DNA of 64,000 nucleotides from Giardia intestinalis. Its lineage: Eukaryota. How positions within the stretch are numbered: position 1 is the first letter of the stretch; each line of letters starts with the position of its first letter. Under the pieces are notes generated by a model. The model was not told where the DNA came from and did not search any database. It was given only the letters and a program-made list of their open reading frames with translations. The position numbers and the translations under genes were made by a program. Shown one piece after another: positions 5,114 through 64,000 of this stretch. The stretch lies in assembly GCA_000002435.2 (NCBI GenBank), contig CM018792.1, one strand, 5' to 3'.

Positions 5114-7324
5114 ATGTTTGGCAGTTTTGTTCTCGCGGGGGTACTCGTCCAGATTGCATGGGCAGAAAAAGTAACAGAGCGCGCGGCTCAATGCGCAGAT
5201 AACACTAATTGCGCAGCAGAAGCATGCAACGTTCTGATCGGTGGTAAATTGTATTGCTCTCAATGTAACACAGGATTTGTTCCTATCAATGGACAATGTG
5301 CAGGCAAAGAAGATGCAAAAACCAAGTGTAAAGATACCGATGGAGGCGATACAGCTGATCAGACCTGTGGACAGTGCGCTGAGCAGACTTTCATGTACAA
5401 GGGCGGCTGTTACGAAGCAGCCCAGCAGCCCGGACAGACCATATGTCAGGCGGCAGAAAATGGAAAATGCACACAGGCTAAGGCTGGATACTTCGTGCCG
5501 CCGGGCGCAGACGCCTCTCACCAATCGGTCATACCGTGCGGAGACGAAGAGGAAATAACGGTTAAGAACGATAAAAAGTACAAGGGCGTAGTGCATTGTA
5601 CTCAGTGTAACGCTCCCGCAGAAGCAGCAGATGCTAACGCCAAGGCCGCCACATGTACTGCGTGCGGCGATAGCAAGATCGTCAAGACGGCCAAGGACCA
5701 AGCCACCTCCTGCGTGACAGAAAAAGAGTGCACGGATGCCCCAGGCTTCTTCGTTGATACGACGAGCGGTAAAAAATGCAGCAAGTGCGCTGAGACATGC
5801 AAGACCTGTAAGACCGAGGCTGCGAAGTGCACCTCCTGTAAGGACGACAAGCCGTACCTGAAGAAGGATGACGAGTCCACAACTGGCACGTGCGTTGACG
5901 CAAACGGCTGCCCGGCAACTCATTACGTTGATAAGGAAGCAAAGGAGTGCAACACCTGCGTTTCAGGAGGGACGGTGGACTGCACCACTTGTGAGAAAGG
6001 CGCCAACGGAGTGGTTTGTAAGACGTGTACGACTGGTACGAAGACCAAGTTTGGCCTTGGAAAGAAGTCATGCGTTGAGAACTGCCCCTCGAACTCCAGC
6101 GATGAAAAGACCCCTGGCACCTGTGAGTGCGTCGAGGGCTACGTTCCCGACGACGCGGGCACCGGGTGTACGAAGAAATCCGACCCCCAGTGCAACACCC
6201 CCGGCTGCAAGACGTGCAGTGATCCGAAGAAAGACAAGGAGGTGTGCACAGAATGCGAAGACCCCAAGGCCCTCACGCCCACGGGCCAGTGCATCGATAA
6301 CTGCGGAGATCTGGGAGGCTACTACGAGGGCACCAACGAGGGGGGCAAGAAGGCCTGCAAGAAGTGCGAGGTCGAGAACTGCCTCCTGTGCAATGGGCAG
6401 GGACAGTGCGAGACCTGCAAGGACGGGTACTACAAGAGCGGAGCCGCCTGTGCCAAGTGCGATACCTCGTGCAAGACGTGCGCGAACGGGAAGCCCAACG
6501 GGTGTACGAGCTGCGAGCCTAAGCAGGTCCTCAGCTACGAAGGGGAGGGCACGGGGACGTACAAACCAGAATGCAAGCCAGTGAGCGGCGGCAAGGATGG
6601 AACGTGCAAGAGCTGCGACCTGAGCATAGACGGGACAAGCTACTGTTCTGCCTGTAACGTGGGCACGGAGTATCCAGAGAACGGTGTGTGCGTCAAGAAG
6701 TCGGCCCGCACAGCCTCCTGCCAGGTCGAACCGAGCAATGGTGTGTGCGGGACATGTGCAAAGGGCTTCTTCCGCATGAACGGGGGCTGCTACGAAACGA
6801 CCAAACTCCCTGGAAAGAACGTCTGTGAGGAGGCAGCACCGACCGGCGATACCTGTCAGACTCCGGCCGACGGGTACAAACTGAATAACGGCGCGCTCAT
6901 CACTTGCTCGGCCGGATGTAAGACGTGCACCAGCCAGGACCAGTGCGACACGTGTAAGGCTGGATATGCTAAGACTGGCGGTAACACTAAGAAGTGCGTT
7001 CCCTGCGCCACTGGGTGCTCCGAGTGCAATGCGGACGACGCCACCAAGTGCACGGTGTGCGCTGCAGGGTACTACCTGTCCAAAGAAAAGTGCATAGCAT
7101 GCGACAAGAGCGACGGCGGATCCATCACCGGCGTCGCCAACTGCGCCAACTGCGCTCCCCCAACCAACAATAAAGGGCCTGTCCTCTGCTACCTCATACA
7201 GAACACCAACAGGAGCGGGCTTTCCACGGGGGCCATAGCGGGGATCTCCGTCGCTGTCATCGCTGTCGTGGGGGGCCTCGTGGGCTTCCTCTGCTGGTGG
7301 TTCATATGTAGAGGGAAGGCGTGA
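5114..7324 (+). CDS. Variant-specific surface protein (VSP), head gene of the tandem array (737 aa; signal peptide, CXXC-rich ectodomain, TM, CRGKA tail)
   Basis: The track ORF begins at 4688, but the VSP-type signal peptide MFGSFVLAGVLVQIAWA begins at ATG 5114 (in frame). There are many CXXC and GGCY motifs. C-terminus is NRSGLSTGAIAGISVAVIAVVGGLVGFLCWWFICRGKA followed by stop. Confidence 0.9.
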   Translation: MFGSFVLAGVLVQIAWAEKVTERAAQCADNTNCAAEACNVLIGGKLYCSQCNTGFVPINGQCAGKEDAKTKCKDTDGGDTADQTCGQCAEQTFMYKGGCYEAAQQPGQTICQAAENGKCTQAKAGYFVPPGADASHQSVIPCGDEEEITVKNDKKYKGVVHCTQCNAPAEAADANAKAATCTACGDSKIVKTAKDQATSCVTEKECTDAPGFFVDTTSGKKCSKCAETCKTCKTEAAKCTSCKDDKPYLKKDDESTTGTCVDANGCPATHYVDKEAKECNTCVSGGTVDCTTCEKGANGVVCKTCTTGTKTKFGLGKKSCVENCPSNSSDEKTPGTCECVEGYVPDDAGTGCTKKSDPQCNTPGCKTCSDPKKDKEVCTECEDPKALTPTGQCIDNCGDLGGYYEGTNEGGKKACKKCEVENCLLCNGQGQCETCKDGYYKSGAACAKCDTSCKTCANGKPNGCTSCEPKQVLSYEGEGTGTYKPECKPVSGGKDGTCKSCDLSIDGTSYCSACNVGTEYPENGVCVKKSARTASCQVEPSNGVCGTCAKGFFRMNGGCYETTKLPGKNVCEEAAPTGDTCQTPADGYKLNNGALITCSAGCKTCTSQDQCDTCKAGYAKTGGNTKKCVPCATGCSECNADDATKCTVCAAGYYLSKEKCIACDKSDGGSITGVANCANCAPPTNNKGPVLCYLIQNTNRSGLSTGAIAGISVAVIAVVGGLVGFLCWWFICRGKA

Positions 7325-7338
7325 CTTAGGTAGTGAAT
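7325..7338 (+). promoter_or_regulatory. Conserved VSP 3' motif/polyadenylation signal (CTTAGGTAGTGAAT; AGTGAAT = AGTRAAY at 7332..7338)
   Basis: Immediately 3' of the TGA; fits the Giardia AGTRAAY polyA signal and the extended VSP 3' motif ACTYAGRTAGTRAAY (recalled from literature). Repeated at 9158-9171, 10991-11004, 12890-12903, 14699-14712, 63830-63843, and as AGTAAAT at 16544-16550. Confidence 0.75.
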
Positions 7339-9157
7339 GCTGTACAGTGATAGTGATAGTGATAGTGCTATGTGGTGTGGGGGTGATAGTGGTGGTGTGG
7401 GACTTTTCTTCATGGGCGGGTGCTACAAGACAGAGAGTCAGCCCGGCAGTGACATATGCACAGCAGCCAGTAATGGAGTATGCACTACTTGTAAGGCAGA
7501 TAACGGCCTGTTCAAGAACCCAGTTACACCTCAGAAGCCTGGTAGCGAGTGCATCCTGTGCTCTGATACTAAGGGAGCAGATGGATATACGGGGGTGGCC
7601 AACTGCCTCAAGTGCACAGAACCAACTAATAGTCCAGGAGCTGCCACGTGCACTGAGTGTCAAGAGGGGTACTATAAAGAGAATAACGAATGCAATCAGT
7701 GTGATCAGTCCTGTCTGACTTGCAGTGGAAGTGGTCCGAATCATTGCACATCCTGTAAGGAGGGGAAGTATCTGAAAAGCGATAATACCTGTTCACCTAC
7801 ATGTGAAGGAAACACTTATGCTGACCCTGTGACAAGGACATGCAAGGAGTCTGGTATAGCAGATTGCACCGCGTGTGAGTACAACACGACTGTCAGCAAG
7901 CCCCAGTGCACCGCCTGTAACAATAAGAAGGTGAAGACAGAGCTGGATGGGACAACCACTTGCGTCGATGATGCTGGGTGCGCAACAGATAACGTCGACG
8001 GATCCCACTTTCTGAGTGATGATAGCACCAAGTGCATATTATGCAGTGATACAACAACAGGAACAGAAGCAAACGACAAGGGGATTGCTAATTGTAAAAC
8101 GTGTAAGAAGAACGGAGCCAAGCCGACCTGCTCAGCTTGCCTCGACGGATACTTTGGTTCTGATACATGCACAGCTTGCGGTGCCAACTGTGCTACATGC
8201 TCTGCTGCTGGCAATGATCAGTGCACTAAATGCAAGCCTGGATTCTTCATGAAACAACCCGGCTCTACTGGTGAGTGTGTTGCTTGCGACAGTAAAGCCG
8301 ACAATGGCATCGAGGGATGCAGTGCATGCACAAACGATGGCGGTGCTTTCAAGTGCACCGATTGCAAGCCCAACTATCGCAAGGAGGGCAGTACTGGCTC
8401 TGTCACATGCACCAAGACCTGTGAAGATGATACTACCTGTGGTGGTACCTCTGGCGCCTGTGATGCCATGATAATAGATGATCAGGGCACCACAAAGCAC
8501 TATTGCTCATACTGTGGGGATAGTTCACAAGCTCCTATCGATGGTCTCTGTGCTACTGATAAGAATGGGAATACTTGTACCAATAATGTCTGTACATCAT
8601 GTACTCAAGGGTACTTCTTGTACATGGACGGCTGTTATAGTACTCAGAGTCAACCTGGTAACCTCATGTGCAAGACAGCTAACAACGGGGTCTGTACAGC
8701 CGTTAATGAGAATAATAAGTACTTCATAGTACCAGAAGCAAAGCCTACTCAGCAGTCTGTACTAGCATGTGGTAACCCATTAGGCACACTAGTAGATACT
8801 AAGGCATATGTGGGGGTGGATGGCTGCTCCCAGTGTACAGCCCCAACAGCTCCATCTGAGGGTGGCATGACCCCCGCTGTGTGTACCTCCTGTGACAGTG
8901 GTAAGAAGCCCAACAGGGATGGCACTGGGTGTGTGACATGCTCTGACACCAACTGCAAGAGCTGTGCGATGGACGGTGTGTGTGGGGAGTGCAACAGTGG
9001 CTTCAGTCTAGACAATGGCAAGTGCGTGTCCACTGGCGCCAACAGGAGCGGGCTCTCCACGGGGGCCATCGCGGGCATCTCCGTCGCCGTGGTCGTCGTC
9101 GTGGGGGGCCTCGTGGGCTTCCTCTGCTGGTGGTTCGTGTGCAGGGGGAAGGCGTGA
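7337..9157 (+). CDS. VSP-family ORF, 5'-truncated cassette (606 aa; no signal peptide; likely pseudogene or silent cassette). Its ATG lies inside the preceding gene's polyA signal
   Basis: Same frame as the head gene. Begins MLYSDSDSDSAMWCGGDSGGVGLFFMGGCYKTESQPG (translation of the microsatellite, then a GGCY module). Ends ...GLSTGAIAGISVAVVVVVGGLVGFLCWWFVCRGKA. Confidence 0.75.
   Translation: MLYSDSDSDSAMWCGGDSGGVGLFFMGGCYKTESQPGSDICTAASNGVCTTCKADNGLFKNPVTPQKPGSECILCSDTKGADGYTGVANCLKCTEPTNSPGAATCTECQEGYYKENNECNQCDQSCLTCSGSGPNHCTSCKEGKYLKSDNTCSPTCEGNTYADPVTRTCKESGIADCTACEYNTTVSKPQCTACNNKKVKTELDGTTTCVDDAGCATDNVDGSHFLSDDSTKCILCSDTTTGTEANDKGIANCKTCKKNGAKPTCSACLDGYFGSDTCTACGANCATCSAAGNDQCTKCKPGFFMKQPGSTGECVACDSKADNGIEGCSACTNDGGAFKCTDCKPNYRKEGSTGSVTCTKTCEDDTTCGGTSGACDAMIIDDQGTTKHYCSYCGDSSQAPIDGLCATDKNGNTCTNNVCTSCTQGYFLYMDGCYSTQSQPGNLMCKTANNGVCTAVNENNKYFIVPEAKPTQQSVLACGNPLGTLVDTKAYVGVDGCSQCTAPTAPSEGGMTPAVCTSCDSGKKPNRDGTGCVTCSDTNCKSCAMDGVCGECNSGFSLDNGKCVSTGANRSGLSTGAIAGISVAVVVVVGGLVGFLCWWFVCRGKA
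7347..7367 (+). repeat. (GTGATAG)3 perfect heptamer microsatellite in the VSP inter-unit junction
   Basis: cagtGATAGTGATAGTGATAGtgc. Identical copy at 12912..12932. Degenerate GGTGATA/GGTGATAG heptamers at 9182-9228, 11015-11058, 14723-14769, 63863-63898. Confidence 0.85.
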
Positions 9158-9220
9158 CTTGGGTAGTGAATGCTGTACAGTGGGTGATAATGGGTGATAG
9201 AAGGTGATAGAGGGTGATAG

Positions 9221-10990
9221 TGGAGTGAGATATGCACACAGGCTAGTGATGGACTGTGCACTGCTTGTAAGGCAGCTAACCAGTACATATTCCAGAACAG
9301 GGCAGAGAGGGTGACCCCTGGTGGGGAGTGCATCCTCTGTCATGATGCCACGGGAGCGAATGAGAACAAAGGAGTGGCTAACTGCCTCAAGTGCACGGCA
9401 CCAGCTAATAGTCCAGGGGCTGCCACGTGTACTGAGTGCATGTCTGGCTTCTCAGGAGACTCGTGTGCTACTCAATGCGGAGGAGACTGTGCCGCCTGTG
9501 ATAAGAGTAACCAAAATCAGTGCACCTCTTGTAAGACTGGGAAGTACCTGAAAGAGAATCAATGTGTGGAAAAAAGTGCATGTAACAACAATCACTACCC
9601 CGATGACACTAGCATGACCTGCGTCGCCTGTAGCACCATACAAGATTGCACAGCATGCACAATGGACCAGTCCACGGGGAAGCCAAAGTGCACTAACTGC
9701 GGTGCCAGTAAGATCCCCAGGACGACTCTCGACGGAACCTCGACCTGCGTGACAAAAGGGTATGATCAGTGTCAAGGCACAGATAAGGAGCTGTTCATGA
9801 AGGAGGACCAATCGGCGTGCTTATTATGCGGAGACAATACTGAGGATACATCTGAGTCCAATAAAAACCAGGGAACTCCTAATTGCAAGACCTGTACCAA
9901 GACAGCATCCACTAAACCGGTCTGTGAGACGTGCAAGGATGGCTTCTTCTTTAATACTGGTGATAAGACATGTACAAACAAGTGCGATGCCACCTGCAAG
10001 ACGTGCTCTGCTGCTACAGATGCTAACCGATGCTTAACTTGTATGCCCGGATACTTCCCCATCGATAGTACAGATCAACAAGGGAAGAAGTGCGTCCCAT
10101 GCGATAGTGTGGACGACAAGGGTCGCGAAGGGTGCAGTGTCTGCTCTAACAATGGTGGATTCAAGTGTACTGAATGTAAGGTGAACTATAAGAAGCAGTC
10201 CAATGGAGATGCAGGGGATGACTATACATGTGTGAAGACTTGTGAAGACCCCACGGCTTGTGGTGGGACCTCTGGCGCCTGCGATGCTATAGTAATCGAC
10301 AATGATGGAGTAGAGCATCATTACTGTTCTTATTGTGGAAATCAAGGAGATGTACCAATCAATGGTATATGCACCAGCTCACTTGCAAGTAATACCTGCG
10401 CCGATGGTGTCTGCAAGTCTTGTGCTCAAGGGTACTTTATGTATATGGGAGGGTGCTATGATGTGTCGAAGGCTCCTGGTAGTCACATGTGCAAGAAAGC
10501 AGATAACAATGGGATATGCACAGAGGCGGCAAGTAATAGGTACTTCGTAGTCCCTGGGGCACAGACCACTGATCAGTCTGTATTAGCCTGTGGCAACCCC
10601 CTAGGCACACTAGTAGGCACTCAAGGTACCGCTAAGGCATACGTGGGGGTGGATGGCTGCTCACAGTGCACAGCCCCAGCAGGTCTGTCTGAGGGTGGCA
10701 TGACCCCCGCTGTCTGTACCTCCTGTGACAATAGTAAGAAGCCCAACAAGGATGGCAGCGGGTGTGTGCTGTGCTCTGACACCAACTGCAAGAGCTGTGT
10801 GATGGACGGTGTGTGTGGGGAGTGCAACAGTGGCTTCAGTCTAGACAATGGTAAGTGTGTGTCCTCTGGCGCCAACAGGAGCGGGCTCAGCACGGGCGCC
10901 ATCGCGGGGATCTCCGTGGCTGTCATCGCTGTCGTGGGGGGCCTCGTGGGCTTCCTCTGCTGGTGGTTCGTGTGCAGGGGGAAGGCGTGA
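9221..10990 (+). CDS. VSP-family 5'-truncated cassette (VSP-like frame opens at 9221 after the last in-frame junction stop; track ORF 9311..10990, 559 aa; no ATG or signal peptide at the 5' end)
   Basis: ICTQASDGLCTACKAANQYIFQN...TPGGECILCHDATGANENKG..., ends ...ISVAVIAVVGGLVGFLCWWFVCRGKA. Near-identical to 14762..16531. Confidence 0.75.
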   Translation, partial: WSEICTQASDGLCTACKAANQYIFQNRAERVTPGGECILCHDATGANENKGVANCLKCTAPANSPGAATCTECMSGFSGDSCATQCGGDCAACDKSNQNQCTSCKTGKYLKENQCVEKSACNNNHYPDDTSMTCVACSTIQDCTACTMDQSTGKPKCTNCGASKIPRTTLDGTSTCVTKGYDQCQGTDKELFMKEDQSACLLCGDNTEDTSESNKNQGTPNCKTCTKTASTKPVCETCKDGFFFNTGDKTCTNKCDATCKTCSAATDANRCLTCMPGYFPIDSTDQQGKKCVPCDSVDDKGREGCSVCSNNGGFKCTECKVNYKKQSNGDAGDDYTCVKTCEDPTACGGTSGACDAIVIDNDGVEHHYCSYCGNQGDVPINGICTSSLASNTCADGVCKSCAQGYFMYMGGCYDVSKAPGSHMCKKADNNGICTEAASNRYFVVPGAQTTDQSVLACGNPLGTLVGTQGTAKAYVGVDGCSQCTAPAGLSEGGMTPAVCTSCDNSKKPNKDGSGCVLCSDTNCKSCVMDGVCGECNSGFSLDNGKCVSSGANRSGLSTGAIAGISVAVIAVVGGLVGFLCWWFVCRGKA

Positions 10991-11059
10991 CTTGGGTAGT
11001 GAATGCTGTACAGTGGGTGATAATGGGTGATAGAAGGTGATAGAGGGTGATAATGGAGT

Positions 11060-12889
11060 GTGATATGTACAGCAGCCAGTGATGGAGTGTGCACTGCTTG
11101 TAACACAGCTAACCAGTACATATTCCAGAACAAGGCTACGACAGTGACCCCTGGTGGGGAGTGCATCCTCTGTCATGATGCCACGGGAGCGAATGAGAAC
11201 AAAGGAGTGGCTAACTGCCTCAAGTGCACGGAACCAAGTGGTAGTCCAGGAGCTGCCACGTGTACAGAGTGTCAAGCAGGGTACTATAAAGATGGTAACG
11301 GTGCATGTGTCAAATGTAATGAAGCTTGTCTGACTTGCAGCGGTGAGGGCGCAACTAAGTGCACCCTCTGTGCGGGCGAGAAGTATCTCGATGGGAATAA
11401 TTGTGTAGATGCTAGCAGTTGTAATGGAGATAAGTACCCCAACCCAAGCACTGGGAAGTGCACAGCTTGTAACGCTGGAGCAGATCAGGGGGGCATACCA
11501 GAGTGCACTGCTTGCACGTACAATGCAAAGCTACAGAAGCCGGTGTGCAGTGCCTGTAACGGTAAGAAGGTGAAGACAGAGCTGGATGGGACAACAACCT
11601 GTGTCGATGATGCTGGGTGCAAAAAAGACAGCACACACTTTGTTGACGATGATAATACTATGTGTGTTCTGTGCAGCGATACCAGCGGAAACGAGCCAAA
11701 TAAGAACAAGGGACTCAAAGGCTGTAAGGCATGTACTAAGCAGTCCAGTAGTCCCCCCACGTGTACCGGATGCTTACCCGGATATTACGATTCCGGCTCG
11801 TTTGTTTGTGAGCTCTGCACAGGGAACTGTGCCACCTGCGAAGGTGCTAATGCTAACCAGTGCCAAACCTGCAAGCCGGGATACTTCCTGAAAGGAGGCC
11901 AAGCACCTGCGGAGTGTGTCGCCTGTGATAGCACCGCCGATAACGGAGTCCCCGGCTGCGCAACATGCACCTTTGATACCATACTAACATGCGACTCCTG
12001 CAAGCCCGACTACAAGCTAACAGGGACTGGGTGTCAAAAGGTCTGTGAGGACACAACGGGGTGTGGTGGTACCTCTGGCGCTTGTGATGCCACAGTGATC
12101 GATGCTAATGGAAAGGAGCTTCACTACTGTTCCTATTGTGGAGAGAGTGGTAAGTATCCTATCGATGGGAAGTGTGTTGATAACGCTCAAAGTAATCAAT
12201 GCGCTGATGGTGTATGTACACAGTGTGCTCAAGGGTACTTTATGTACATGGGCGGGTGCTATAGCACTACCAATGCTCCTGGTAAGTCCATGTGCAAGAC
12301 AGCTGAAGGTGGCAAGTGCACAGCTGCTAATGAGAATAATAGGTACTTCGTAGTACCAGGGGCATCCAACACTGATCAGTCTGTACTAGCATGTGGTAAC
12401 CCATTAGGCACACTAGTAGGCACTAGTAATACTGCTAAGGCATACGTGGGGGTCGAGGGCTGCTCACAGTGTACGGCCCCAGCAGCTCTGTCTGATGGTG
12501 GTATGACTGCTGCTATATGCACTTCTTGTGACAATAGTAAGAAGCCCAACAAGGATGGCAGTGGGTGCTTCACATGTACCATCGATGGATGCTCGCACTG
12601 CAATAGAGACAACATGTGCGAGGCATGTAGTGATGGTAAGAAGGTGAGCCCTGGGAGGAAGTCATGCGTGGATGGCTGCCCCAGCAACTCCACTGATGAT
12701 AACTCTGTCTGTGTGTGCAACGATGGGTACAGCCCTGATGATGCTGGGGCCTCCTGTGTGTCCTCTGGCGCCAACAGGAGCGGGCTTTCCACGGGGGCCA
12801 TAGCGGGGATCTCCGTCGCTGTCATCGCTGTCGTGGGGGGCCTCGTGGGCTTCCTCTGCTGGTGGTTCATATGTAGAGGGAAGGCGTGA
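11060..12889 (+). CDS. VSP-family 5'-truncated cassette (609 aa; GTG alt-start in track, no ATG or signal peptide)
   Basis: VICTAASDGVCTACNTANQYIFQNKATTVTPGGECILCHDATG..., ends ...ISVAVIAVVGGLVGFLCWWFICRGKA. Same frame as the others. Confidence 0.75.
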   Translation: MICTAASDGVCTACNTANQYIFQNKATTVTPGGECILCHDATGANENKGVANCLKCTEPSGSPGAATCTECQAGYYKDGNGACVKCNEACLTCSGEGATKCTLCAGEKYLDGNNCVDASSCNGDKYPNPSTGKCTACNAGADQGGIPECTACTYNAKLQKPVCSACNGKKVKTELDGTTTCVDDAGCKKDSTHFVDDDNTMCVLCSDTSGNEPNKNKGLKGCKACTKQSSSPPTCTGCLPGYYDSGSFVCELCTGNCATCEGANANQCQTCKPGYFLKGGQAPAECVACDSTADNGVPGCATCTFDTILTCDSCKPDYKLTGTGCQKVCEDTTGCGGTSGACDATVIDANGKELHYCSYCGESGKYPIDGKCVDNAQSNQCADGVCTQCAQGYFMYMGGCYSTTNAPGKSMCKTAEGGKCTAANENNRYFVVPGASNTDQSVLACGNPLGTLVGTSNTAKAYVGVEGCSQCTAPAALSDGGMTAAICTSCDNSKKPNKDGSGCFTCTIDGCSHCNRDNMCEACSDGKKVSPGRKSCVDGCPSNSTDDNSVCVCNDGYSPDDAGASCVSSGANRSGLSTGAIAGISVAVIAVVGGLVGFLCWWFICRGKA

Positions 12890-12901
12890 CTTAGGTAGTG
12901 A

Positions 12902-14698
12902 ATGCTGTACAGTGATAGTGATAGTGATAGTGCTATGTGGTGTGGGGGTGATAGTGGTGGTGTGGGACTTTTCTTCATGGGCGGGTGCTACAAGACAGAG
13001 AGTCAGCCCGGCAGTGACATATGCACAGCAGCCAGTAATGGAGTATGCACTACTTGTAAGGCAGATAACGGCCTGTTCAAGAACCCAGTTACACCTCAGA
13101 AGCCTGGTAGTGAGTGCATCCTGTGCTCTGATACGACAGATAGAAACGGGGTCATGGGAGTCGCTGGATGCTCAGAATGCTCCCACACGGGCACTAGCGG
13201 ACCGGCCACGTGTACAGAGTGTCAAGCAGGGTTCGTTACGAAGGACAGTGCATGTGTGAAGTGCGGAGACGGCTGCTCTGCTTGCTCAGCTGATACTCCG
13301 ACTCAGTGTACCGCCTGCGTTGAGGGGAAGTACTTGAAGGGTGGTAACACTTGTGTAGATGCTGGTGGATGTGACAATGGTAACTATGCGGACAAGAAGA
13401 CCTGGACCTGTAAGGCCTGCAGTGAGATACAAGGATGCACCGCGTGTGCATACGACGACGCCACGGGAAAGCCGAAGTGCACCGACTGCGGTAGTAAGAC
13501 GGTCAGAGACGAGCTGGATGGGACAACGACCTGTGTTGATGAGGCCGAGTGCAAAGTGGGCAAGACGCACTTCTACGACGCCTCGAAGTGCGTGCAGTGC
13601 GGCGACAATGGTAAGGGCGGAGTCCAGAACTGCAAGCTGTGCACCGCAAAAGGCACCTGCGAGGCTTGTGTCGACGGGTATAAAGTCAACGGAAACGCCT
13701 GCGAGGCCTGCACAGGAAACTGCGCAGAGTGCGGAACAGCGGGTCAAATCAACACATGTACAAGATGCATGCCGGGGTACTTCCTTAAGGATGGCCCGCC
13801 TAAGACATGCGTTCTCTGTGATGACGAGACAAGTGGGATTCCAGGCTGTGCCGAGTGCACAGGCGGCGTGGGGTCCCTCAAATGCACTGAATGTAAGCCC
13901 AACTACAGACCCAGCGGAGAACCTAGCGACCTCACATGTACAAAGACCTGCGAGGATGAGACGGCGTGTGGGGGTACCTCTGGCGCTTGTGATGCCACAG
14001 TGATCGATGCTAATGGAAAGGAGCTTCATTACTGTTCATACTGTGGAGAGAGTGGTAAGTATCCTATCGATGGGAAGTGTGTTGATAATGCTCAAAGTAA
14101 TACTTGTAACAACCATGTATGTACATCATGTGCTCAAGGGTACTTCTTGTATATGGGAGGTTGTTACAAGGTTGATACAGTACCTGGCAACTATATGTGC
14201 AAGGCATCAAGTAAGGAGGGGATATGCACAGAGGCAGCCAACAATAGGTACTTCGTAGTCCCTGGGGCACAGACCACTGATCAGTCTGTACTAGCATGTG
14301 GTAACCCATTAGGCACACTAGTAGGCACTCAAGGTACCGCTAAGGCATACGTGGGGGTGGATGGCTGCTCACAGTGCACAGCCCCAGCAGGTCTGTCTGA
14401 GGGTGGCATGACCCCCGCTGTCTGTACCTCCTGTGACAATAGTAAGAAGCCCAACAAGGATGGCAGCGGGTGTGTGCTGTGCTCTGACACCAACTGCAAG
14501 AGCTGTGTGATGGACGGTGTGTGTGGGGAGTGCAACAGTGGCTTCAGTCTAGACAATGGTAAGTGTGTGTCCTCTGGCGCCAACAGGAGCGGGCTCAGCA
14601 CGGGCGCCATCGCGGGCATCTCCGTCGCCGTGGTCGTCGTCGTGGGGGGCCTCGTGGGCTTCCTCTGCTGGTGGTTCGTGTGCAGGGGGAAGGCGTGA
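12902..14698 (+). CDS. VSP-family 5'-truncated cassette (598 aa), a mosaic: 5' region equals unit 7337-9157, middle equals unit 11060-12889, 3' region equals units 9221-10990 and 14762-16531
   Basis: Its first about 80 aa and its junction are identical to unit 2. The block CEDETACGGTSGACDATVIDANGKELHYCSYCGESGKYPIDGKCVDNAQSN is shared with unit 4. The C-terminal about 130 aa are shared with units 3 and 6. CRGKA tail. Confidence 0.75.
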   Translation: MLYSDSDSDSAMWCGGDSGGVGLFFMGGCYKTESQPGSDICTAASNGVCTTCKADNGLFKNPVTPQKPGSECILCSDTTDRNGVMGVAGCSECSHTGTSGPATCTECQAGFVTKDSACVKCGDGCSACSADTPTQCTACVEGKYLKGGNTCVDAGGCDNGNYADKKTWTCKACSEIQGCTACAYDDATGKPKCTDCGSKTVRDELDGTTTCVDEAECKVGKTHFYDASKCVQCGDNGKGGVQNCKLCTAKGTCEACVDGYKVNGNACEACTGNCAECGTAGQINTCTRCMPGYFLKDGPPKTCVLCDDETSGIPGCAECTGGVGSLKCTECKPNYRPSGEPSDLTCTKTCEDETACGGTSGACDATVIDANGKELHYCSYCGESGKYPIDGKCVDNAQSNTCNNHVCTSCAQGYFLYMGGCYKVDTVPGNYMCKASSKEGICTEAANNRYFVVPGAQTTDQSVLACGNPLGTLVGTQGTAKAYVGVDGCSQCTAPAGLSEGGMTPAVCTSCDNSKKPNKDGSGCVLCSDTNCKSCVMDGVCGECNSGFSLDNGKCVSSGANRSGLSTGAIAGISVAVVVVVGGLVGFLCWWFVCRGKA

Positions 14699-14761
14699 CT
14701 TGGGTAGTGAATGCTGTACAGTGGGTGATAATGGGTGATAGAAGGTGATAGAGGGTGATAG

Positions 14762-16531
14762 TGGAGTGAGATATGCACACAGGCTAGTGATGGACTGTGC
14801 ACTGCTTGTAAGGCAGCTAACCAGTACATATTCCAGAACAAGGCTACGACAGTGACCCCTGGTGGGGAGTGCATACTGTGCCATGATGCCACGGGAGCGA
14901 ATGAGAACAAGGGAGTGGCTAATTGCCTCAAGTGCACGGCACCAGCTAATAGTCCAGGGGCTGCCACGTGTACTGAGTGCATGTCTGGCTTCTCAGGAGA
15001 CTCGTGTGCTACTCAATGCGGAGGAGACTGTGCCGCCTGTGATAAGAGTAACCAAAATCAGTGCACCTCTTGTAAGACTGGGAAGTACCTGAAAGAGAAT
15101 CAATGTGTGGAAAAAAGTGCATGTAACAACAATCACTACCCCGATGACACTAGCATGACCTGCGTCGCCTGTAGCACCATACAAGATTGCACAGCATGCA
15201 CAATGGACCAGTCCACGGGGAAGCCAAAGTGCACTAACTGCGGTGCCAGTAAGATCCCCAGGACGACTCTCGACGGAACCTCGACCTGCGTGACAAAAGG
15301 GTATGATCAGTGTCAAGGCACAGATAAGGAGCTGTTCATGAAGGAGGACCAATCGGCGTGCTTATTATGCGGAGACAATACTGAGGATACATCTGAGTCC
15401 AATAAAAACCAGGGAACTCCTAATTGCAAGACCTGTACCAAGACAGCATCCACTAAACCGGTCTGTGAGACGTGCAAGGATGGCTTCTTCTTTAATACTG
15501 GTGATAAGACATGTACAAACAAGTGCGATGCCACCTGCAAGACGTGCTCTGCTGCTACAGATGCTAACCGATGCTTAACTTGTATGCCCGGATACTTCCC
15601 CATCGATAGTACAGATCAACAAGGGAAGAAGTGCGTCCCATGCGATAGTGTGGACGACAAGGGTCGCGAAGGGTGCAGTGTCTGCTCTAACAATGGTGGA
15701 TTCAAGTGTACTGAATGTAAGGTGAACTATAAGAAGCAGTCCAATGGAGATGCAGGGGATGACTATACATGTGTGAAGACTTGTGAAGACCCCACGGCTT
15801 GTGGTGGGACCTCTGGCGCCTGCGATGCTATAGTAATCGACAATGATGGAGTAGAGCATCATTACTGTTCTTATTGTGGAAATCAAGGAGATGTACCAAT
15901 CAATGGTATATGCACCAGCTCACTTGCAAGTAATACCTGCGCCGATGGTGTCTGCAAGTCTTGTGCTCAAGGGTACTTTATGTATATGGGAGGGTGCTAT
16001 GATGTGTCGAAGGCTCCTGGTAGTCACATGTGCAAGAAAGCAGATAACAATGGGATATGCACAGAGGCGGCAAGTAATAGGTACTTCGTAGTCCCTGGGG
16101 CACAGACCACTGATCAGTCTGTATTAGCCTGTGGCAACCCCCTAGGCACACTAGTAGGCACTCAAGGTACCGCTAAGGCATACGTGGGGGTGGATGGCTG
16201 CTCACAGTGCACAGCCCCAGCAGGTCTGTCTGAGGGTGGCATGACCCCCGCTGTCTGTACCTCCTGTGACAATAGTAAGAAGCCCAACAAGGATGGCAGC
16301 GGGTGTGTGCTGTGCTCTGACACCAACTGCAAGAGCTGTGTGATGGACGGTGTGTGTGGGGAGTGCAACAGTGGCTTCAGTCTAGACAATGGTAAGTGTG
16401 TGTCCTCTGGCGCCAACAGGAGCGGGCTCAGCACGGGCGCCATCGCGGGGATCTCCGTGGCTGTCATCGCTGTCGTGGGGGGCCTCGTGGGCTTCCTCTG
16501 CTGGTGGTTCGTGTGTAGAGGGAAGGCGTAG
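14762..16531 (+). CDS. VSP-family 5'-truncated cassette, near-identical duplicate of 9221..10990 (track ORF 14852..16531 encodes the identical 559-aa product); terminal unit of the array
   Basis: ORF-track proteins for 9311..10990 and 14852..16531 are identical. Ends CRGKA + TAG, then AGTAAAT polyA signal (16544..16550). No further junction follows. Confidence 0.75.
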   Translation, partial: WSEICTQASDGLCTACKAANQYIFQNKATTVTPGGECILCHDATGANENKGVANCLKCTAPANSPGAATCTECMSGFSGDSCATQCGGDCAACDKSNQNQCTSCKTGKYLKENQCVEKSACNNNHYPDDTSMTCVACSTIQDCTACTMDQSTGKPKCTNCGASKIPRTTLDGTSTCVTKGYDQCQGTDKELFMKEDQSACLLCGDNTEDTSESNKNQGTPNCKTCTKTASTKPVCETCKDGFFFNTGDKTCTNKCDATCKTCSAATDANRCLTCMPGYFPIDSTDQQGKKCVPCDSVDDKGREGCSVCSNNGGFKCTECKVNYKKQSNGDAGDDYTCVKTCEDPTACGGTSGACDAIVIDNDGVEHHYCSYCGNQGDVPINGICTSSLASNTCADGVCKSCAQGYFMYMGGCYDVSKAPGSHMCKKADNNGICTEAASNRYFVVPGAQTTDQSVLACGNPLGTLVGTQGTAKAYVGVDGCSQCTAPAGLSEGGMTPAVCTSCDNSKKPNKDGSGCVLCSDTNCKSCVMDGVCGECNSGFSLDNGKCVSSGANRSGLSTGAIAGISVAVIAVVGGLVGFLCWWFVCRGKA

Positions 16532-16718
16532 ATGTACTTAGGTAGTAAATGCGTCGACCGTGTTCAAGCTGTCAGGTGTTGTGGCATATACTTGTGAAGC
16601 TCGTCTGGTACTGGGATTTATAGACTTCCATCTAATTACCACGAACAGATAAATTTCTAAAAAACTCGCCGCTTGGGACTTCGAGGCTTTTATTAGTTAG
16701 CTTAGGCATTTCTAGGCA

Positions 16719-61374: not shown

Positions 61375-61447
61375 GAGCGGCTGTCTCTCACTGCTCGCGG
61401 CAACACACCAGCCTGACGGAAGAGCAGTGGCACGTGTACTCCGGCTA

Positions 61448-63829
61448 ATGTTGGTAGGATTTCTCCTAGTTTGTGCAACCGTGCTGGCAAAGGACACCGG
61501 GAAGACCGCATGCGAGCTTTCCAACACAGAATGCGCCCAAAACCTGAAGGACGCGGGCTGCAAGACGTGCGTCGGGACGGAGCCTGACCAGACGTGCACT
61601 GAGTGTACAGATCCCTCCCACAATGTACAGATTGACAAGAAGAGTTGCGACGCCAACTGCCCGGAGCACGCCGCGGCCAACTCGAAAGTGTGCGGGTGCG
61701 TCGCTGGGTACCAGCCGACTCCCGGGCAGAACCAGTGCGAGCTTTCCAACACAGAATGCGCCCAAAACCTGAAGGACGCGGGCTGCAAGACGTGCGTCGG
61801 GACGGAGCCTGACCAGACGTGCACTGAGTGTACAGATCCCTCCCACAATGTACAGATTGACAAGAAGAGTTGCGACGCCAACTGCCCGGAGCACGCCGCG
61901 GCCAACTCGAAAGTGTGCGGGTGCGTCGCTGGGTACCAGCCGACTCCCGGGCAGAACCAGTGCGAGCTTTCCAACACAGAATGCGCCCAAAACCTGAAGG
62001 ACGCGGGCTGCAAGACGTGCGTCGGGACGGAGCCTGACCAGACGTGCACTGAGTGTACAGATCCCTCCCACAATGTACAGATTGACAAGAAGAGTTGCGA
62101 CGCCAACTGCCCGGAGCACGCCGCGGCCAACTCGAAAGTGTGCGGGTGCGTCGCTGGGTACCAGCCGACTCCCGGGCAGAACCAGTGCGAGCTTTCCAAC
62201 ACAGAATGCGCCCAAAACCTGAAGGACGCGGGCTGCAAGACGTGCGTCGGGACGGAGCCTGACCAGACGTGCACTGAGTGTACAGATCCCTCCCACAATG
62301 TACAGATTGACAAGAAGAGTTGCGACGCCAACTGCCCGGAGCACGCCGCGGCCAACTCGAAAGTGTGCGGGTGCGTCGCTGGGTACCAGCCGACTCCCGG
62401 GCAGAACCAGTGCGAGCTTTCCAACACAGAATGCGCCCAAAACCTGAAGGACGCGGGCTGCAAGACGTGCGTCGGGACGGAGCCTGACCAGACGTGCACT
62501 GAGTGTACAGATCCCTCCCACAATGTACAGATTGACAAGAAGAGTTGCGACGCCAACTGCCCGGAGCACGCCGCGGCCAACTCGAAAGTGTGCGGGTGCG
62601 TCGCTGGGTACCAGCCGACTCCCGGGCAGAACCAGTGCGAGCTTTCCAACACAGAATGCGCCCAAAACCTGAAGGACGCGGGCTGCAAGACGTGCGTCGG
62701 GACGGAGCCTGACCAGACGTGCACTGAGTGTACAGATCCCTCCCACAATGTACAGATTGACAAGAAGAGTTGCGACGCCAACTGCCCGGAGCACGCCGCG
62801 GCCAACTCGAAAGTGTGCGGGTGCGTCGCTGGGTACCAGCCGACTCCCGGGCAGAACCAGTGCGAGAAGGCCCCTAACACGCAGTGCAATACTCCCAACT
62901 GCAAGACCTGTGACAACCCCAAAACAGACAACGAAATCTGCACCGAATGTAATGATGGCAACTACCTCACCCCGACAAAGCAGTGCACGCAGAGCTGCGG
63001 AACAATAGGAAGCTACTATGATGGAGACAAAGCGTGCGAGCCTTGTGATCCTAGCTGTGCTGGGTGCACCACAAAGGGGCCAGCGAAGTGCACGCTGTGT
63101 CCTCCCGGGAAGAGGCTCCAGTACACCAATGATGATCCTAATCAAGGTGGATCTTGTGTAGATGAGTGCAAAGCAGAGATGGACGGGTGTGCAGAGTGTG
63201 GAGCGATAATCGGCGGTACGAAGTACTGTTCAAAATGCAAGGAAGATAAGTGGGCACCTCAGAATGGCGTGTGCGCTAATTCAGTAACAAGGAATTCATT
63301 CTGCACGAACGCAGCAGGTGGTGTATGCACTCAGTGTGCTGCAGATCATTTCCTTCAAGATGGCGGTTGCTACAAACTCGGCAGACAGCCTGGTGTCCAG
63401 ATATGTGCAGCGGCGGGTCCCAATAGCCTGTGTACTACGTGCGTAAATGGACAGAGACCAGATACCAATACTGGAGCCTGTCCTGTGTGTCCAACAGGCT
63501 GTGACACATGTACAGGGACATCCTCGCGGGCGCCCGAATGCCAATCTTGCCTTCTGGGATACTATTTCGATTCTGATAAAAAACTGTGTGTGAAATGTAC
63601 CGAGAATAGTAGTGCTATTCAAGGTGTTAGCAGCTGTGTGAGCTGCGCTCCTCCATCTAACAATCAAGGATCTGTCGTCTGCTACCTCATAAATGATAGC
63701 GGTAGCACAAACAAGAGTAGCGGGCTCTCCACGGGGGCCATAGCGGGGATCTCCGTTGCTGTGGTCGTTGTTGTGGGGGGTCTCGTAGGGTTCCTTTGCT
63801 GGTGGTTCCTCTGCCGGGGCAAGGCGTGA
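61448..63829 (+). CDS. Variant-specific surface protein (VSP, 793 aa) containing six perfect 75-aa tandem repeats
   Basis: Signal peptide MLVGFLLVCATVLA at ATG 61448 (the track ORF from 61004 is an upstream in-frame extension). CXXC-rich. C-terminus NKSSGLSTGAIAGISVAVVVVVGGLVGFLCWWFLCRGKA + TGA + CTTAGGTAGTGAAT. Confidence 0.9.
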   Translation: MLVGFLLVCATVLAKDTGKTACELSNTECAQNLKDAGCKTCVGTEPDQTCTECTDPSHNVQIDKKSCDANCPEHAAANSKVCGCVAGYQPTPGQNQCELSNTECAQNLKDAGCKTCVGTEPDQTCTECTDPSHNVQIDKKSCDANCPEHAAANSKVCGCVAGYQPTPGQNQCELSNTECAQNLKDAGCKTCVGTEPDQTCTECTDPSHNVQIDKKSCDANCPEHAAANSKVCGCVAGYQPTPGQNQCELSNTECAQNLKDAGCKTCVGTEPDQTCTECTDPSHNVQIDKKSCDANCPEHAAANSKVCGCVAGYQPTPGQNQCELSNTECAQNLKDAGCKTCVGTEPDQTCTECTDPSHNVQIDKKSCDANCPEHAAANSKVCGCVAGYQPTPGQNQCELSNTECAQNLKDAGCKTCVGTEPDQTCTECTDPSHNVQIDKKSCDANCPEHAAANSKVCGCVAGYQPTPGQNQCEKAPNTQCNTPNCKTCDNPKTDNEICTECNDGNYLTPTKQCTQSCGTIGSYYDGDKACEPCDPSCAGCTTKGPAKCTLCPPGKRLQYTNDDPNQGGSCVDECKAEMDGCAECGAIIGGTKYCSKCKEDKWAPQNGVCANSVTRNSFCTNAAGGVCTQCAADHFLQDGGCYKLGRQPGVQICAAAGPNSLCTTCVNGQRPDTNTGACPVCPTGCDTCTGTSSRAPECQSCLLGYYFDSDKKLCVKCTENSSAIQGVSSCVSCAPPSNNQGSVVCYLINDSGSTNKSSGLSTGAIAGISVAVVVVVGGLVGFLCWWFLCRGKA
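61511..62860 (+). repeat. Six perfect head-to-tail copies of a 225-bp (75-aa) coding repeat inside the VSP
   Basis: Unit CELSNTECAQNLKDAGCKTCVGTEPDQTCTECTDPSHNVQIDKKSCDANCPEHAAANSKVCGCVAGYQPTPGQNQ begins at 61511, 61736, 61961, 62186, 62411, 62636. The copies show no visible nucleotide divergence (minus-strand ORF translations are also perfectly periodic). Confidence 0.9.
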
Positions 63830-64000
63830 CTTAGGTAGTGAATGCTGTACAATGTGTGATAGAAGGTGATAGTGGGTGATAGTGTGATAATGGAGTGTGA
63901 TATGTACAGCAGCCAGTGATGGAGTGTGCACTGCTTGTAACACAGCTAACCAGTACATATTCCAGAACAAGGCTACGACAGTGACCCCTGGTGGGGAGTG
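63830..64000 (+). other. VSP junction module (3' motif + heptamer repeats) followed by the start of another 5'-truncated VSP cassette running off the right edge
   Basis: The sequence after 63829 is near-identical to junction 10991-11170 (..GGTGATAG.. repeats, then SVICTAASDGVCTACNTANQYIFQNKATTVTPGGEC). Confidence 0.7.

What the first reader, a model, noticed from the sequence alone, without database searches (positions are those of the whole stretch)
7325..7420. Conserved inter-unit junction: VSP 3' motif, triple in-frame stops, and a (GTGATAG)n heptamer microsatellite that reads as (SD)n
Every unit boundary is TGA + CTT[A/G]GGTAGTGAAT + degenerate GTGATAG/GGTGATA heptamers, then the VSP-like frame resumes at once. 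This pattern is at 7325, 9158, 10991, 12890, 14699 and 63830. In phase, the junction contributes three to six stop codons (TGA..TAG TGA..), so read-through translation is excluded. In junctions 1 and 4 the heptamer is a perfect (GTGATAG)3, translated in the cassette ORF as SDSDSD. The heptamer tract may be a slippage-prone spacer, a recombination hotspot delimiting cassettes, or a degenerate remnant of coding sequence. The array terminates differently at 16529-16550 (TAG + AGTAAAT).
Basis: partly seen in the sequence, partly recalled or inferred. Interest (0 to 1): 0.55.

Follow-up and report, generated by a model that had tools for sequence, protein, structure and literature searches.

The report
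Giardia VSP pseudogene array junctions
These are the boundaries between a complete Giardia surface-antigen (VSP) gene and the headless VSP pseudogene copies lined up behind it: each keeps the family's known stop-plus-polyadenylation signal followed by a short, unstable GT-rich repeat, an arrangement already described for this parasite.

Summary
The window is Giardia intestinalis WB chromosome 4. The motif is real: CTTRGGTAGTGAAT follows all seven CRGKA-stop VSP ends in the window (one variant with AGTAAAT at the array's end) and occurs nowhere else. It is the published VSP-specific extended poly(A) signal, ACUUAGRUAGURAAYRY.

The array is a published "linear array". A complete VSP (5114-7324, with Inr and signal peptide) is followed by five 5'-truncated pseudo-VSPs that have neither.

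The "heptamer microsatellite" is mis-measured. The 7-letter words are real, but they recur every 6 bases in J1 and J4, which is why they read as SD-SD-SD. In J2, J3, J5 and J7 they recur mostly every 10 bases.

The same junction module occurs at other WB loci and in two independent contigs. There it has 1-5 cores, and the downstream unit starts at different points and in different phases. That pattern fits a slippage- and deletion-prone spacer inherited by descent.

Identity tracts run across junctions rather than ending at them, so the junction does not delimit exchange. The spacer matches no VSP coding or 5' sequence held here.

One point is of some interest. The pseudogene bodies look protein-constrained (no stops, dN/dS about 0.3, cysteines kept) and mosaic. 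This fits the published reservoir hypothesis. Overall the finding is already known and of low interest.

The parts
5114..7324 (+). G1: complete VSP gene, head of the array (736 aa). It has the initiator CAATGTT at the ATG, the signal peptide MFGSFVLAGVLVQIAWA, and a TM segment plus CRGKA plus TGA at the end.
   Evidence: It is an exact match to KAE8303950.1 / XP_001706652.2 'VSP' on a 2.76-Mb WB contig.
7322..7396 (+). J1 junction. Stop TGA 7322-7324, overlapping the extended poly(A) signal ACTTAGGTAGTGAATGC 7324-7340 (hexamer AGTGAA 7332-7337). Then GCTGTACA up to 7346, (GTGATA)3 at 7347-7364, a GT-rich tract with a fourth core at 7383-7388, ending where VSP homology begins.
   Evidence: The motif equals the published extended PAS (bioRxiv 10.1101/2022.03.07.483299).
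7397..9157 (+). U2: 5'-truncated pseudo-VSP that starts at the ..FFMGGCY motif. The open frame runs from ATG 7337, which lies inside the poly(A) signal. There is no signal peptide and no Inr.
   Evidence: Pfam PF03302 VSP, E = 1.5e-39. 100% identical to the 2007 model XP_001706653.1, which is held only in the old protein set.
9155..9224 (+). J2 junction. TGA, then ACTTGGGTAGTGAATGC, then TGTACAGTGG, then four GTGATA cores exactly 10 bases apart. There are 7 in-frame stops.
   Evidence: (TRF 9179-9228, period 10).
9225..10990 (+). U3: 5'-truncated pseudo-VSP that starts at ..SEICTQAS (the GGCY segment is missing).
   Evidence: It is 99.3% identical to U6.
10988..11057 (+). J3 junction, of the J2 type.
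   Evidence: (TRF 11014-11056).
11058..12889 (+). U4: 5'-truncated pseudo-VSP. Its last 119 bases are identical to the end of G1.
12887..12961 (+). J4 junction, identical to J1. The identity tract runs from -119 to +220 around the motif.
12962..14698 (+). U5: 5'-truncated pseudo-VSP with a mosaic make-up. Residues 1-78 equal U2. Residues 40-143 match the complete VSP P0014, which lies on a different (1.97-Mb) contig, at 103 of 104 positions. Residues 448-577 equal U3 and U6.
14696..14765 (+). J5 junction, identical to J2.
   Evidence: (TRF 14720-14769).
14766..16531 (+). U6: the last 5'-truncated pseudo-VSP of the array.
16529..16552 (+). Array terminus. TAG, then ATGT, then ACTTAGGTAGTAAATGC (the AGTAAA form). 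No GTGATA repeats follow; unrelated DNA comes next.
61448..63829 (+). G7: second complete VSP (793 aa). It has Inr TAATGTT, signal peptide MLVGFLLVCATVLA, and six perfect 225-base repeats. It heads a second array.
   Evidence: Exact match to KAE8303970.1.
63827..63895 (+). J7 junction. Same module, with core spacings of 10, 10, 8 and 13. The downstream unit is out of phase by one base.
63896..64000 (+). U8: start of the next 5'-truncated pseudo-VSP. It runs off the window and is 94% identical to the start of U4.

Best explanation
The junction is the inherited boundary module of a Giardia intestinalis VSP 'linear array'. A complete, expressible VSP gene is followed head-to-tail by 5'-truncated pseudo-VSP copies.

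The left half of each junction is the normal VSP 3' end: the conserved TM/CRGKA coding block, the stop codon, and the VSP-specific extended poly(A) signal ACUUAGRUAGURAAYRY. At J1 this signal presumably ends the mRNA of the head gene. By the published 13-15 base rule, cleavage would fall at about 7345-7347, just where the repeats begin. At the internal junctions the signal is carried along with each copy.

The right half is a short GT-rich low-complexity spacer built on the core GTGATA. It is non-coding filler that expands, contracts and suffers deletions into the next unit. I infer no function of its own.

The module arose once. It spread by tandem duplication, unequal crossing-over and gene conversion, which use the conserved 150-base 3' block as homology.

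The downstream units lack an initiator, a proper start and a signal peptide, so they are silent as surface antigens. Their bodies are kept open and VSP-like by exchange with functional VSPs, which is the published 'sequence reservoir' idea.

Shown here: the anatomy, common descent of the junctions, copy-number and breakpoint variation, tracts that cross junctions, and protein-like constraint on the bodies.

Inferred: use of the J1 signal for cleavage, silence of the downstream units, and the direction and timing of exchange.
For: - Identity of the locus: ORF 7337-9157 is 100% XP_001706653.1 'VSP [Giardia lamblia ATCC 50803]'. G1 and G7 are current WB VSP proteins on a 2.76-Mb contig.
- The motif follows 7 of 7 CRGKA stops and occurs nowhere else. 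It matches the published extended PAS, for which 323 of 327 genome hits lie at VSPs or pVSPs.
- The architecture matches the linear arrays of Adam et al. 2010: the first member has an Inr, downstream members have none, and spacers are about 60 bases. It also matches Xu et al. [quoted passage not shown] G1 and G7 have CAATGTT and TAATGTT plus signal peptides; U2-U6 do not.
- Common descent and instability. Other WB models begin MLYSDSDSAMWCGGDS.., with 2 SD rather than 3. Two independent ENA contigs carry five more junctions with the same AGTGAAT + GCTNTAYARTG + 1-5 GTGATA cores. Those junctions are joined to three different VSP positions and to different phases.
- Stand-alone VSP 3' flanks and the array terminus lack the repeats.
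- The block from -120 to +18 is 86-96% identical between units whose bodies have pS of about 0.55.
- Identity tracts cross junctions. U3 and U6 are 99.3% identical. Mosaic exact runs link units to each other and to a complete VSP on a different contig.
- The bodies have 0 stops in about 2,950 codons, dN/dS of 0.29-0.33, and cysteines 92-100% conserved against 55-62% for other residues.
- The cleavage distance rule and the absence of GU-rich auxiliary elements in Giardia come from PMC9014877.
Against: - No transcript, 3'-end or small-RNA data could be examined, so use of the signal and silence of the units are inferred.
- All 11 internal junctions use AGTGAAT, while the terminus and five stand-alone VSPs use AGTAAAY. 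Descent explains this, but it could also reflect a functional difference.
- The 11 bases beyond the published signal (TGTACAGTG and variants) are 79% identical on average across junctions. That is more than a purely neutral spacer would suggest.
- The exact 10-base phasing of four cores is striking and unexplained.
- Only assemblage-A-like sequences yielded arrays. The loci fetched from P15 (assemblage E) and GS_B (assemblage B) were not arrays.
Confidence: 0.8

Rival explanations
1. The GT-rich GTGATA repeats are a cis-acting recombination signal. They would mark the 5' edge of each silent cassette and initiate or delimit gene conversion into expressed VSP genes, as the 70-bp repeats do upstream of silent VSG genes in Trypanosoma brucei.
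For: - The repeats lie upstream of every silent unit and are absent from stand-alone VSP flanks.
- The junction is far better conserved than synonymous sites of the bodies.
- The cassettes are mosaic and share exact runs with a complete VSP on a different contig.
- Spacers J1 and J4 reach G4Hunter 1.64, in the top 0.1% of the window.
Against: - The identity tracts seen here run across junctions and break inside coding bodies.
- Core number, spacing and downstream join point vary freely.
- Most junctions score below the usual G4 threshold, and there is no canonical G4 in the window.
- The papers read here describe VSP switching as epigenetic (abstract of PMC2996952). Those that mention pseudo-VSP arrays treat them as a possible sequence reservoir rather than as donors during switching.
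Confidence: 0.08
2. The GT-rich tract is a GU-rich downstream element, or a terminator or insulator, that strengthens the weaker AGUGAA poly(A) signal and stops transcription from running into the next unit.
For: - The repeats begin at the predicted cleavage site, 13-15 bases from the hexamer start (for the rule; for the positions).
- All internal junctions carry AGUGAA, the less preferred hexamer (15% versus 45% of genes).
Against: - Giardia shows no enrichment of GU-rich downstream elements and only low-confidence CstF candidates (PMC9014877).
- Stand-alone VSP genes and the array terminus lack the tract.
- The tract varies from 1 to 5 cores.
Confidence: 0.06
3. The units are retroposed (processed) copies of VSP mRNAs. 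They would be 5'-truncated cDNAs ending at the poly(A) site and inserted head-to-tail by a non-LTR retrotransposon reverse transcriptase.
For: - Units are complete at the 3' end up to about the predicted cleavage site and truncated at variable 5' positions: GGCY, SEICT, or only the last 70 residues.
Against: - No A-tract or target-site duplication is present at any junction.
- The same spacer is joined to different truncation points, which fits later deletions better.
- Higher-order duplicates and junction-spanning identity tracts fit unequal crossing-over.
Confidence: 0.03
4. The downstream units are real genes translated from the ATG inside the poly(A) signal (AGTGAATG..), by re-initiation or from their own transcripts.
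For: - U2 and U5 have uninterrupted ORFs from that ATG (606 and 598 aa) and were annotated as VSPs in 2007.
- The bodies look protein-constrained.
Against: - The N-terminus MLYSDSDSDSAMWCGG.. has no hydrophobic signal sequence, and there is no PyAATGTT initiator.
- J2, J3 and J5 have seven in-frame stops and no ATG start. The units after J7 and in L005 are out of phase.
- The current annotation policy and a later study class VSP copies without a signal peptide as pseudogenes.
Confidence: 0.03

Closest known systems
Giardia lamblia WB vsp 'linear arrays' (Adam et al. 2010, BMC Genomics 11:424, PMC2996952) and the psiVSP arrays of the 2020 WB reference genome (Xu et al., PMC7000408)
   Same: Head-to-tail VSP copies with very short spacers. 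The first member has an Inr and upstream non-coding DNA. Downstream members lack an Inr or a proper start. The CRGKA 3' end is conserved, close duplicates occur within an array, and a reservoir or cassette role is hypothesised. This window is part of that same genome.
   Different: Nothing essential differs. The papers read here do not spell out the spacer sequence (GTGATA cores at 6- or 10-base period). A full-text search for it together with Giardia found nothing.
VSP extended polyadenylation signal ACUUAGRUAGURAAYRY (Rodriguez-Walker et al., bioRxiv 10.1101/2022.03.07.483299) and the Giardia AGURAA poly(A) signal (Bilodeau et al. 2022, PMC9014877)
   Same: J1, J4, J7 and the terminus match exactly. 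J2, J3 and J5 have one mismatch (G for A at position 5). The motif lies within a few bases of the stop and is restricted to VSP and pseudo-VSP ends.
   Different: Here the stop TGA overlaps the first base of the motif. All internal junctions use the AGUGAA form.
Telomere-adjacent psiVSP arrays of Giardia muris (Xu et al. 2020, PMC7641422)
   Same: Tandem arrays of VSP copies without signal peptides, plus evidence of genetic exchange between pseudogenes and intact VSPs.
   Different: The arrays here are chromosome-internal, are headed by an intact VSP, and are shorter. G. muris junction sequences were not compared.
Silent VSG arrays with upstream 70-bp repeats (Trypanosoma brucei) and vls silent cassettes (Borrelia burgdorferi). 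This comparison comes from my own knowledge, not from anything tested here.
   Same: Arrays of promoter-less, 5'-incomplete antigen cassettes. Each is flanked upstream by short repeats and downstream by a conserved 3' block, and the products are mosaic.
   Different: No expression-site conversion is known in Giardia. The tracts seen here do not end at the repeats. The repeats are much shorter and more variable.

Membership tests
VSP extended poly(A) signal (ACUUAGRUAGURAAYRY) | Sequence match to the 17-base consensus | tested here: met
   ACTTAGGTAGTGAATGC at J1, J4 and J7 and ACTTAGGTAGTAAATGC at the terminus match exactly. J2, J3 and J5 have one mismatch.
VSP extended poly(A) signal (ACUUAGRUAGURAAYRY) | Lies within about 28 bases downstream of the stop of a CRGKA-ending ORF, and not after other genes | tested here: met
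   It follows 7 of 7 CRGKA stops, overlapping the stop or 4 bases after it, and occurs 0 times elsewhere on either strand. The plain AGTRAAY hexamer occurs 31 times in the window.
VSP extended poly(A) signal (ACUUAGRUAGURAAYRY) | Directs cleavage and polyadenylation of the transcript | not testable with these tools
   No RNA data were available. The predicted cleavage at about 7345-7347 follows from the published 13-15 base distance.
Giardia VSP linear array / psiVSP array | Two or more head-to-tail VSP units separated by very short spacers (mean 60 bases; range from overlap to 241) | tested here: met
   Six units on one strand. There are about 70-75 bases between a stop and the start of VSP homology, and only 12 bases between ORFs at J1 and J4.
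Giardia VSP linear array / psiVSP array | First member has PyAATGTT and a signal peptide; downstream members lack both | tested here: met
   G1 has CAATGTT and MFGSFVLAGVLVQIAWA. G7 has TAATGTT and MLVGFLLVCATVLA. U2-U6 start inside the mature protein, at GGCY or SEICT. The signal peptide was judged by eye; no predictor was run.
Giardia VSP linear array / psiVSP array | Units are VSP family members with a TM segment plus a CRGKA end | tested here: met
   Pfam PF03302, E = 1.5e-39, for U2. All units end ..GGLVGFLCWWF[IVL]CRGKA.
Heptanucleotide microsatellite | Head-to-tail copies with period 7 | tested here: not met
   Core start positions differ by 6 in J1 and J4 and by 10 in J2, J3 and J5. 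TRF reports period 10.
Cassette-delimiting recombination repeats (as in the T. brucei 70-bp repeats) | Repeat lies upstream of each silent cassette | tested here: met
   Present at all 11 internal junctions examined and absent from stand-alone VSP flanks.
Cassette-delimiting recombination repeats (as in the T. brucei 70-bp repeats) | Exchange tracts begin or end at the repeat | tested here: not met
   The J1/J4 tract runs from -119 to +220 and the J2/J5 tract from -93 to +141. Both cross the repeat.
Cassette-delimiting recombination repeats (as in the T. brucei 70-bp repeats) | Conversion of cassettes into an expressed gene during switching | not testable with these tools
   This needs sequencing of switched clones. 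Only static mosaicism is seen here.
GU-rich downstream element of poly(A) sites | General presence downstream of cleavage sites in the organism, with a CstF-type reader | tested here: not met
   Absent after 5 stand-alone VSPs and after the array terminus. The literature reports no enrichment in Giardia and only low-confidence CstF candidates.

The most novel reading that the evidence does not exclude
The pseudo-VSP arrays are an actively maintained donor-cassette system. The GTGATA-core spacer, phased at 10 bases and starting at the poly(A) cleavage site, would be its cis-acting element. For example, it could be a protein-binding or break-prone site that starts segmental gene conversion into expressed VSP genes. 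That would give Giardia a DNA-level route to new antigens alongside the non-genetic (epigenetic) switching reported for it.
Probability: 0.08. Interest if true: 0.65.

Novelty: already known. Interest (0 to 1): 0.17.

Why it matters
As it stands, this is a correct re-discovery of two published features of the Giardia WB genome: the VSP-specific extended poly(A) signal and the linear arrays of 5'-truncated pseudo-VSPs.

It adds two small points.
- A precise description of the inter-unit spacer: GTGATA cores at a period of 6 or 10, with variable copy number and variable join points.
- A quantitative note that the pseudogene bodies look protein-constrained while the junction is homogenised.

Both points bear on an open question: are these arrays a working reservoir for making new VSPs, or discarded copies? 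The spacer could also serve as a simple genome-wide marker for array junctions, and as a copy-number marker between isolates.

Tried and rejected
- Fetching the same locus from other assemblies failed. Exact-protein look-ups of U2, G1 and G7 found no indexed gene position, although the proteins are in the collection. The isolate-to-isolate copy-number comparison at this very locus could therefore not be done.
- Look-ups of P0002, P0062, P0023, P0053, P0044 and P0067 returned stand-alone or non-array VSPs. They served only as controls for 3' flanks and 5' ends.
- A scan of JGI metagenome contigs for ACTTRGGTAGTGAATGCTGTACA found nothing.
- A protein search with the 62-residue junction peptide returned no candidates because of the word index, so that search was wasted.
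- Spacer as a decayed signal-peptide or start region: local alignments to four VSP 5' ends did no better than shuffles (one of 16 comparisons reached p=0.04). Rejected.
- Spacer as a remnant of VSP coding sequence or of a common 3' flank: blastn-short against about 170 kb of Giardia DNA with the junctions masked gave only E>0.3. A hand alignment upstream of 7397 was unconvincing. Not supported.
- G-quadruplex: only J1 and J4 exceed the G4Hunter threshold, and there is no canonical motif. Not a consistent feature.
- Structured RNA: there were no Rfam matches in the window.
- Frame conservation as a sign of function: J1-J5 are in phase, but they amount to only two or three independent junction types, and the units after J7 and in L005 are out of phase. 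Rejected.
Full report
**What the sequence is.** The ORF at 7337-9157 is 100% identical to XP_001706653.1, 'VSP [Giardia lamblia ATCC 50803]', and its other relatives are Giardia variant-specific surface proteins. Pfam places it in PF03302. The two complete VSPs in the window, 5114-7324 (G1) and 61448-63829 (G7), are exact matches to the current WB proteins KAE8303950.1/XP_001706652.2 and KAE8303970.1. Both are recorded on a 2,761,001-base contig, a size that fits a whole chromosome; I take it to be chromosome 4, whose optical-map size is 2.79 Mb. The genes around the arrays are ordinary Giardia genes: kinases, an ankyrin protein, a CAP-Gly protein and others.

**Checking the observation.**
- CTTRGGTAGTGAAT is at exactly the six stated positions, with a one-mismatch copy at 16537. 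That is 7 matches against 0.71 expected.
- All seven copies directly follow a ...CRGKA stop, all on the + strand. The extended pattern occurs nowhere else, although the plain AGTRAAY hexamer occurs 31 times.
- All six internal junctions continue with GCTGTACA and then repeats of a GTGATA core.
- The 7-letter words GGTGATA and GTGATAG are each present 26 times, against 6.5 and 8.8 expected, and most lie in junctions.
- The period is wrong. In J1 and J4 the words start 6 bases apart (7347, 7353, 7359), so the repeat is (GTGATA)3. This is why it can read as Ser-Asp three times; a true heptamer could not.
- In J2, J3 and J5 four cores lie exactly 10 bases apart, and TRF reports period 10. J7 has spacings of 10, 10, 8 and 13.
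- In-frame stops number 3 in J1 and J4 and 7 in J2, J3 and J5.
- The array ends differently, as described: TAG, four bases, and the AGTAAAT form of the motif, with no repeats.

**Anatomy.**
- G1 has the published VSP initiator (CAATGTT at the ATG) and a hydrophobic signal sequence. G7 has TAATGTT and a signal sequence.
- The five units behind G1 have neither. In J1 and J4, homology to full-length VSP DNA begins at about 7397, at the ..FFMGGCY motif roughly 100 residues into a full-length protein. In J2, J3 and J5 it begins 57 bases further in, at ..SEICT...
- Unit lengths are 1833, 1833, 1899, 1809 and 1833, so J1-J5 keep one reading phase. The unit after J7 is shifted by one base.

**What is already known.**
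- The motif is the VSP-specific 'extended PAS' ACUUAGRUAGURAAYRY. It was found at all 136 VSPs, and 323 of 327 genome hits lie at VSPs or pseudo-VSPs (bioRxiv 10.1101/2022.03.07.483299).
- AGURAA is the Giardia poly(A) signal, and cleavage most often falls 13-15 bases away. AGUAAA is preferred over AGUGAA. GU-rich downstream elements are not enriched (PMC9014877).
- The arrangement is the 'linear array' of Adam et al. 2010. Over half of the WB vsp repertoire lies in such arrays. Spacers average 60 bases. The first member often has an Inr, and no downstream member does. The authors already proposed that downstream members are unexpressed cassettes for recombination, or else discarded genes (PMC2996952).
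- G. muris has similar arrays that exchange sequence with intact VSPs (PMC7641422).
- A full-text search for the spacer sequence together with Giardia found nothing. The spacer's make-up may therefore be undescribed, but it is a detail within a known structure.

**Is the junction general?**
- Three other WB 2007 protein models begin MLYSDSDSAMWCGGDS.. They carry the same junction with two SD rather than three. A fourth reads the same DNA in another frame.
- Two independent ENA assemblies (L005 and L006) carry five more junctions. All have TGA, ACT[TC]AGGTAGTGAAT, GCT[ACG]TA[CT]A[AG]TG, and then 1-5 GTGATA cores, mostly 10 bases apart.
- The spacer there is joined to different places: the GGCY motif (L006a), the ICT motif with the last core fused to the coding GTGA.ATATGC (L005), or only the last 70 residues of a VSP (L006b). 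The phases also differ.
- In contrast, five stand-alone VSP genes and the array terminus have AGTAAAY followed by unrelated sequence.
- So the module marks array junctions, is inherited by descent, and varies by slippage and by deletions running into the downstream unit.
- I could not obtain arrays from assemblages B or E.

**Does the junction delimit recombination?** It does not.
- J1 and J4 are identical from -119 to +220 around the motif and diverge abruptly inside the coding bodies. J2 and J5 are identical from -93 to +141.
- U3 and U6 are 99.3% identical.
- The units are patchworks. U5 shares residues 1-78 with U2. It shares 103 of 104 residues with P0014, a complete VSP on a different (1.97-Mb) contig. 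It shares 130 residues exactly with U3 and U6.
- The block from -120 to +18 is 86-96% identical between units, and the next 11 bases are 79% identical.
- The bodies, by contrast, differ at more than half of their synonymous sites (pS about 0.55, dS about 1).
- The simplest reading is concerted evolution of the conserved 3' block plus junction, with the bodies diversified by exchange.

**State of the pseudogene bodies.**
- There is no stop or frameshift in about 2,950 codons.
- CXXC density is 13.6-15.1 per kb, as in real VSPs.
- dN/dS is 0.29-0.33.
- Cysteines are 92-100% conserved, against 55-62% for other residues.
- These copies do not look like freely decaying DNA. Their diversity was either acquired in functional genes and copied in, or their openness is selected. 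Both readings fit the published reservoir idea, and neither is proved here.

**Origin of the spacer.**
- The core resembles the coding string AGTGA(C/G)ATATGC at the start of the J2-type units, and in L005 the two are fused. This suggests microhomology-mediated deletion. It does not establish where the core came from.
- G-quadruplex potential is high only in J1 and J4.
- No Rfam family matches.

**Mechanism proposed.**
- At J1 the stop and extended poly(A) signal end the mRNA of the head gene. Cleavage is predicted at about 7345-7347, where the repeats start (inference).
- The internal signals are carried along with each copy.
- The GT-rich spacer is unstable filler.
- The array grows and is homogenised by unequal crossing-over and gene conversion through the conserved 3' block.
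- The units are silent as antigens and may serve as a sequence reservoir.
- Rivals are listed with their tests: a recombination signal, a downstream poly(A) element, retroposed copies, and translated genes. Together I give them about 0.2.

**Verdict.** The structure is already described in the Giardia literature. Interest is low, with a small residual chance that the phased GTGATA spacer is a functional recombination element.

Noticed in passing
window 61511-62866: G7 contains 6.0 perfect (100% identical) tandem copies of a 225-base (75-residue) unit. A 398-residue paralogue on the 4.0-Mb contig (P0126) shares exact runs of 68 and 112 residues with G7's C-terminal part.
   Followed up: partly
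window 7397-16531 (units U2-U6): The pseudo-VSP bodies have no stops or frameshifts. dS is about 1.0, dN/dS is about 0.3, and cysteines are 92-100% conserved against 55-62% for other residues. They do not look like decaying pseudogenes.
   Followed up: yes
window junctions; L005 1872-1935; L006 1-110, 1877-1935, 2145-2215; L001-L004 VSP 3' flanks: All 11 internal array junctions use the AGTGAAT form of the poly(A) hexamer. The array terminus and five stand-alone VSPs use AGTAAAY. Stand-alone flanks share their own short continuation (GCG[TC]CGA..).
   Followed up: partly
window 12902-13330 (U5) versus protein P0014: U5 residues 40-143 match a complete WB VSP encoded on a different (1.97-Mb) contig at 103 of 104 positions, while the rest of the two proteins differs. 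This is a clear mosaic patch between an array pseudogene and an intact gene.
   Followed up: partly
L006 1877-2147: A mini-unit of only 70 residues (the last cysteine motif plus TM plus CRGKA) lies between two full junction modules. It resembles the 224-base 'vsp14' described by Adam et al. 2010.
   Followed up: no
L002 9650-9716, minus strand (GS_B, assemblage B): A 5'-truncated VSP that is not part of an array is preceded by GTGCTAGGTGATAGTGCGTGGTGG just upstream of ..FLFMGGCY. This resembles the J1-type spacer and may be a relic or may be chance.
   Followed up: no
window 6068-7744 minus, 61102-62961 minus, and similar: Long antisense ORFs of up to 619 residues overlap the VSP genes. They are most likely by-products of the G+C-rich, stop-poor composition of VSP coding DNA rather than genes.
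   Followed up: no
window 9183-9219, 11016-11052, 14724-14760: Four GGTGATA cores sit at exactly 10-base spacing, about one helical turn, in three junctions. No explanation beyond minisatellite slippage was found.
   Followed up: partly
window 17810-19420, minus strand: A cysteine-rich protein with ephrin-receptor-like and TNFR-like repeats lies just downstream of the array, after an endonuclease/exonuclease/phosphatase-like gene. It may be one of Giardia's non-VSP cysteine-rich membrane proteins.
   Followed up: no
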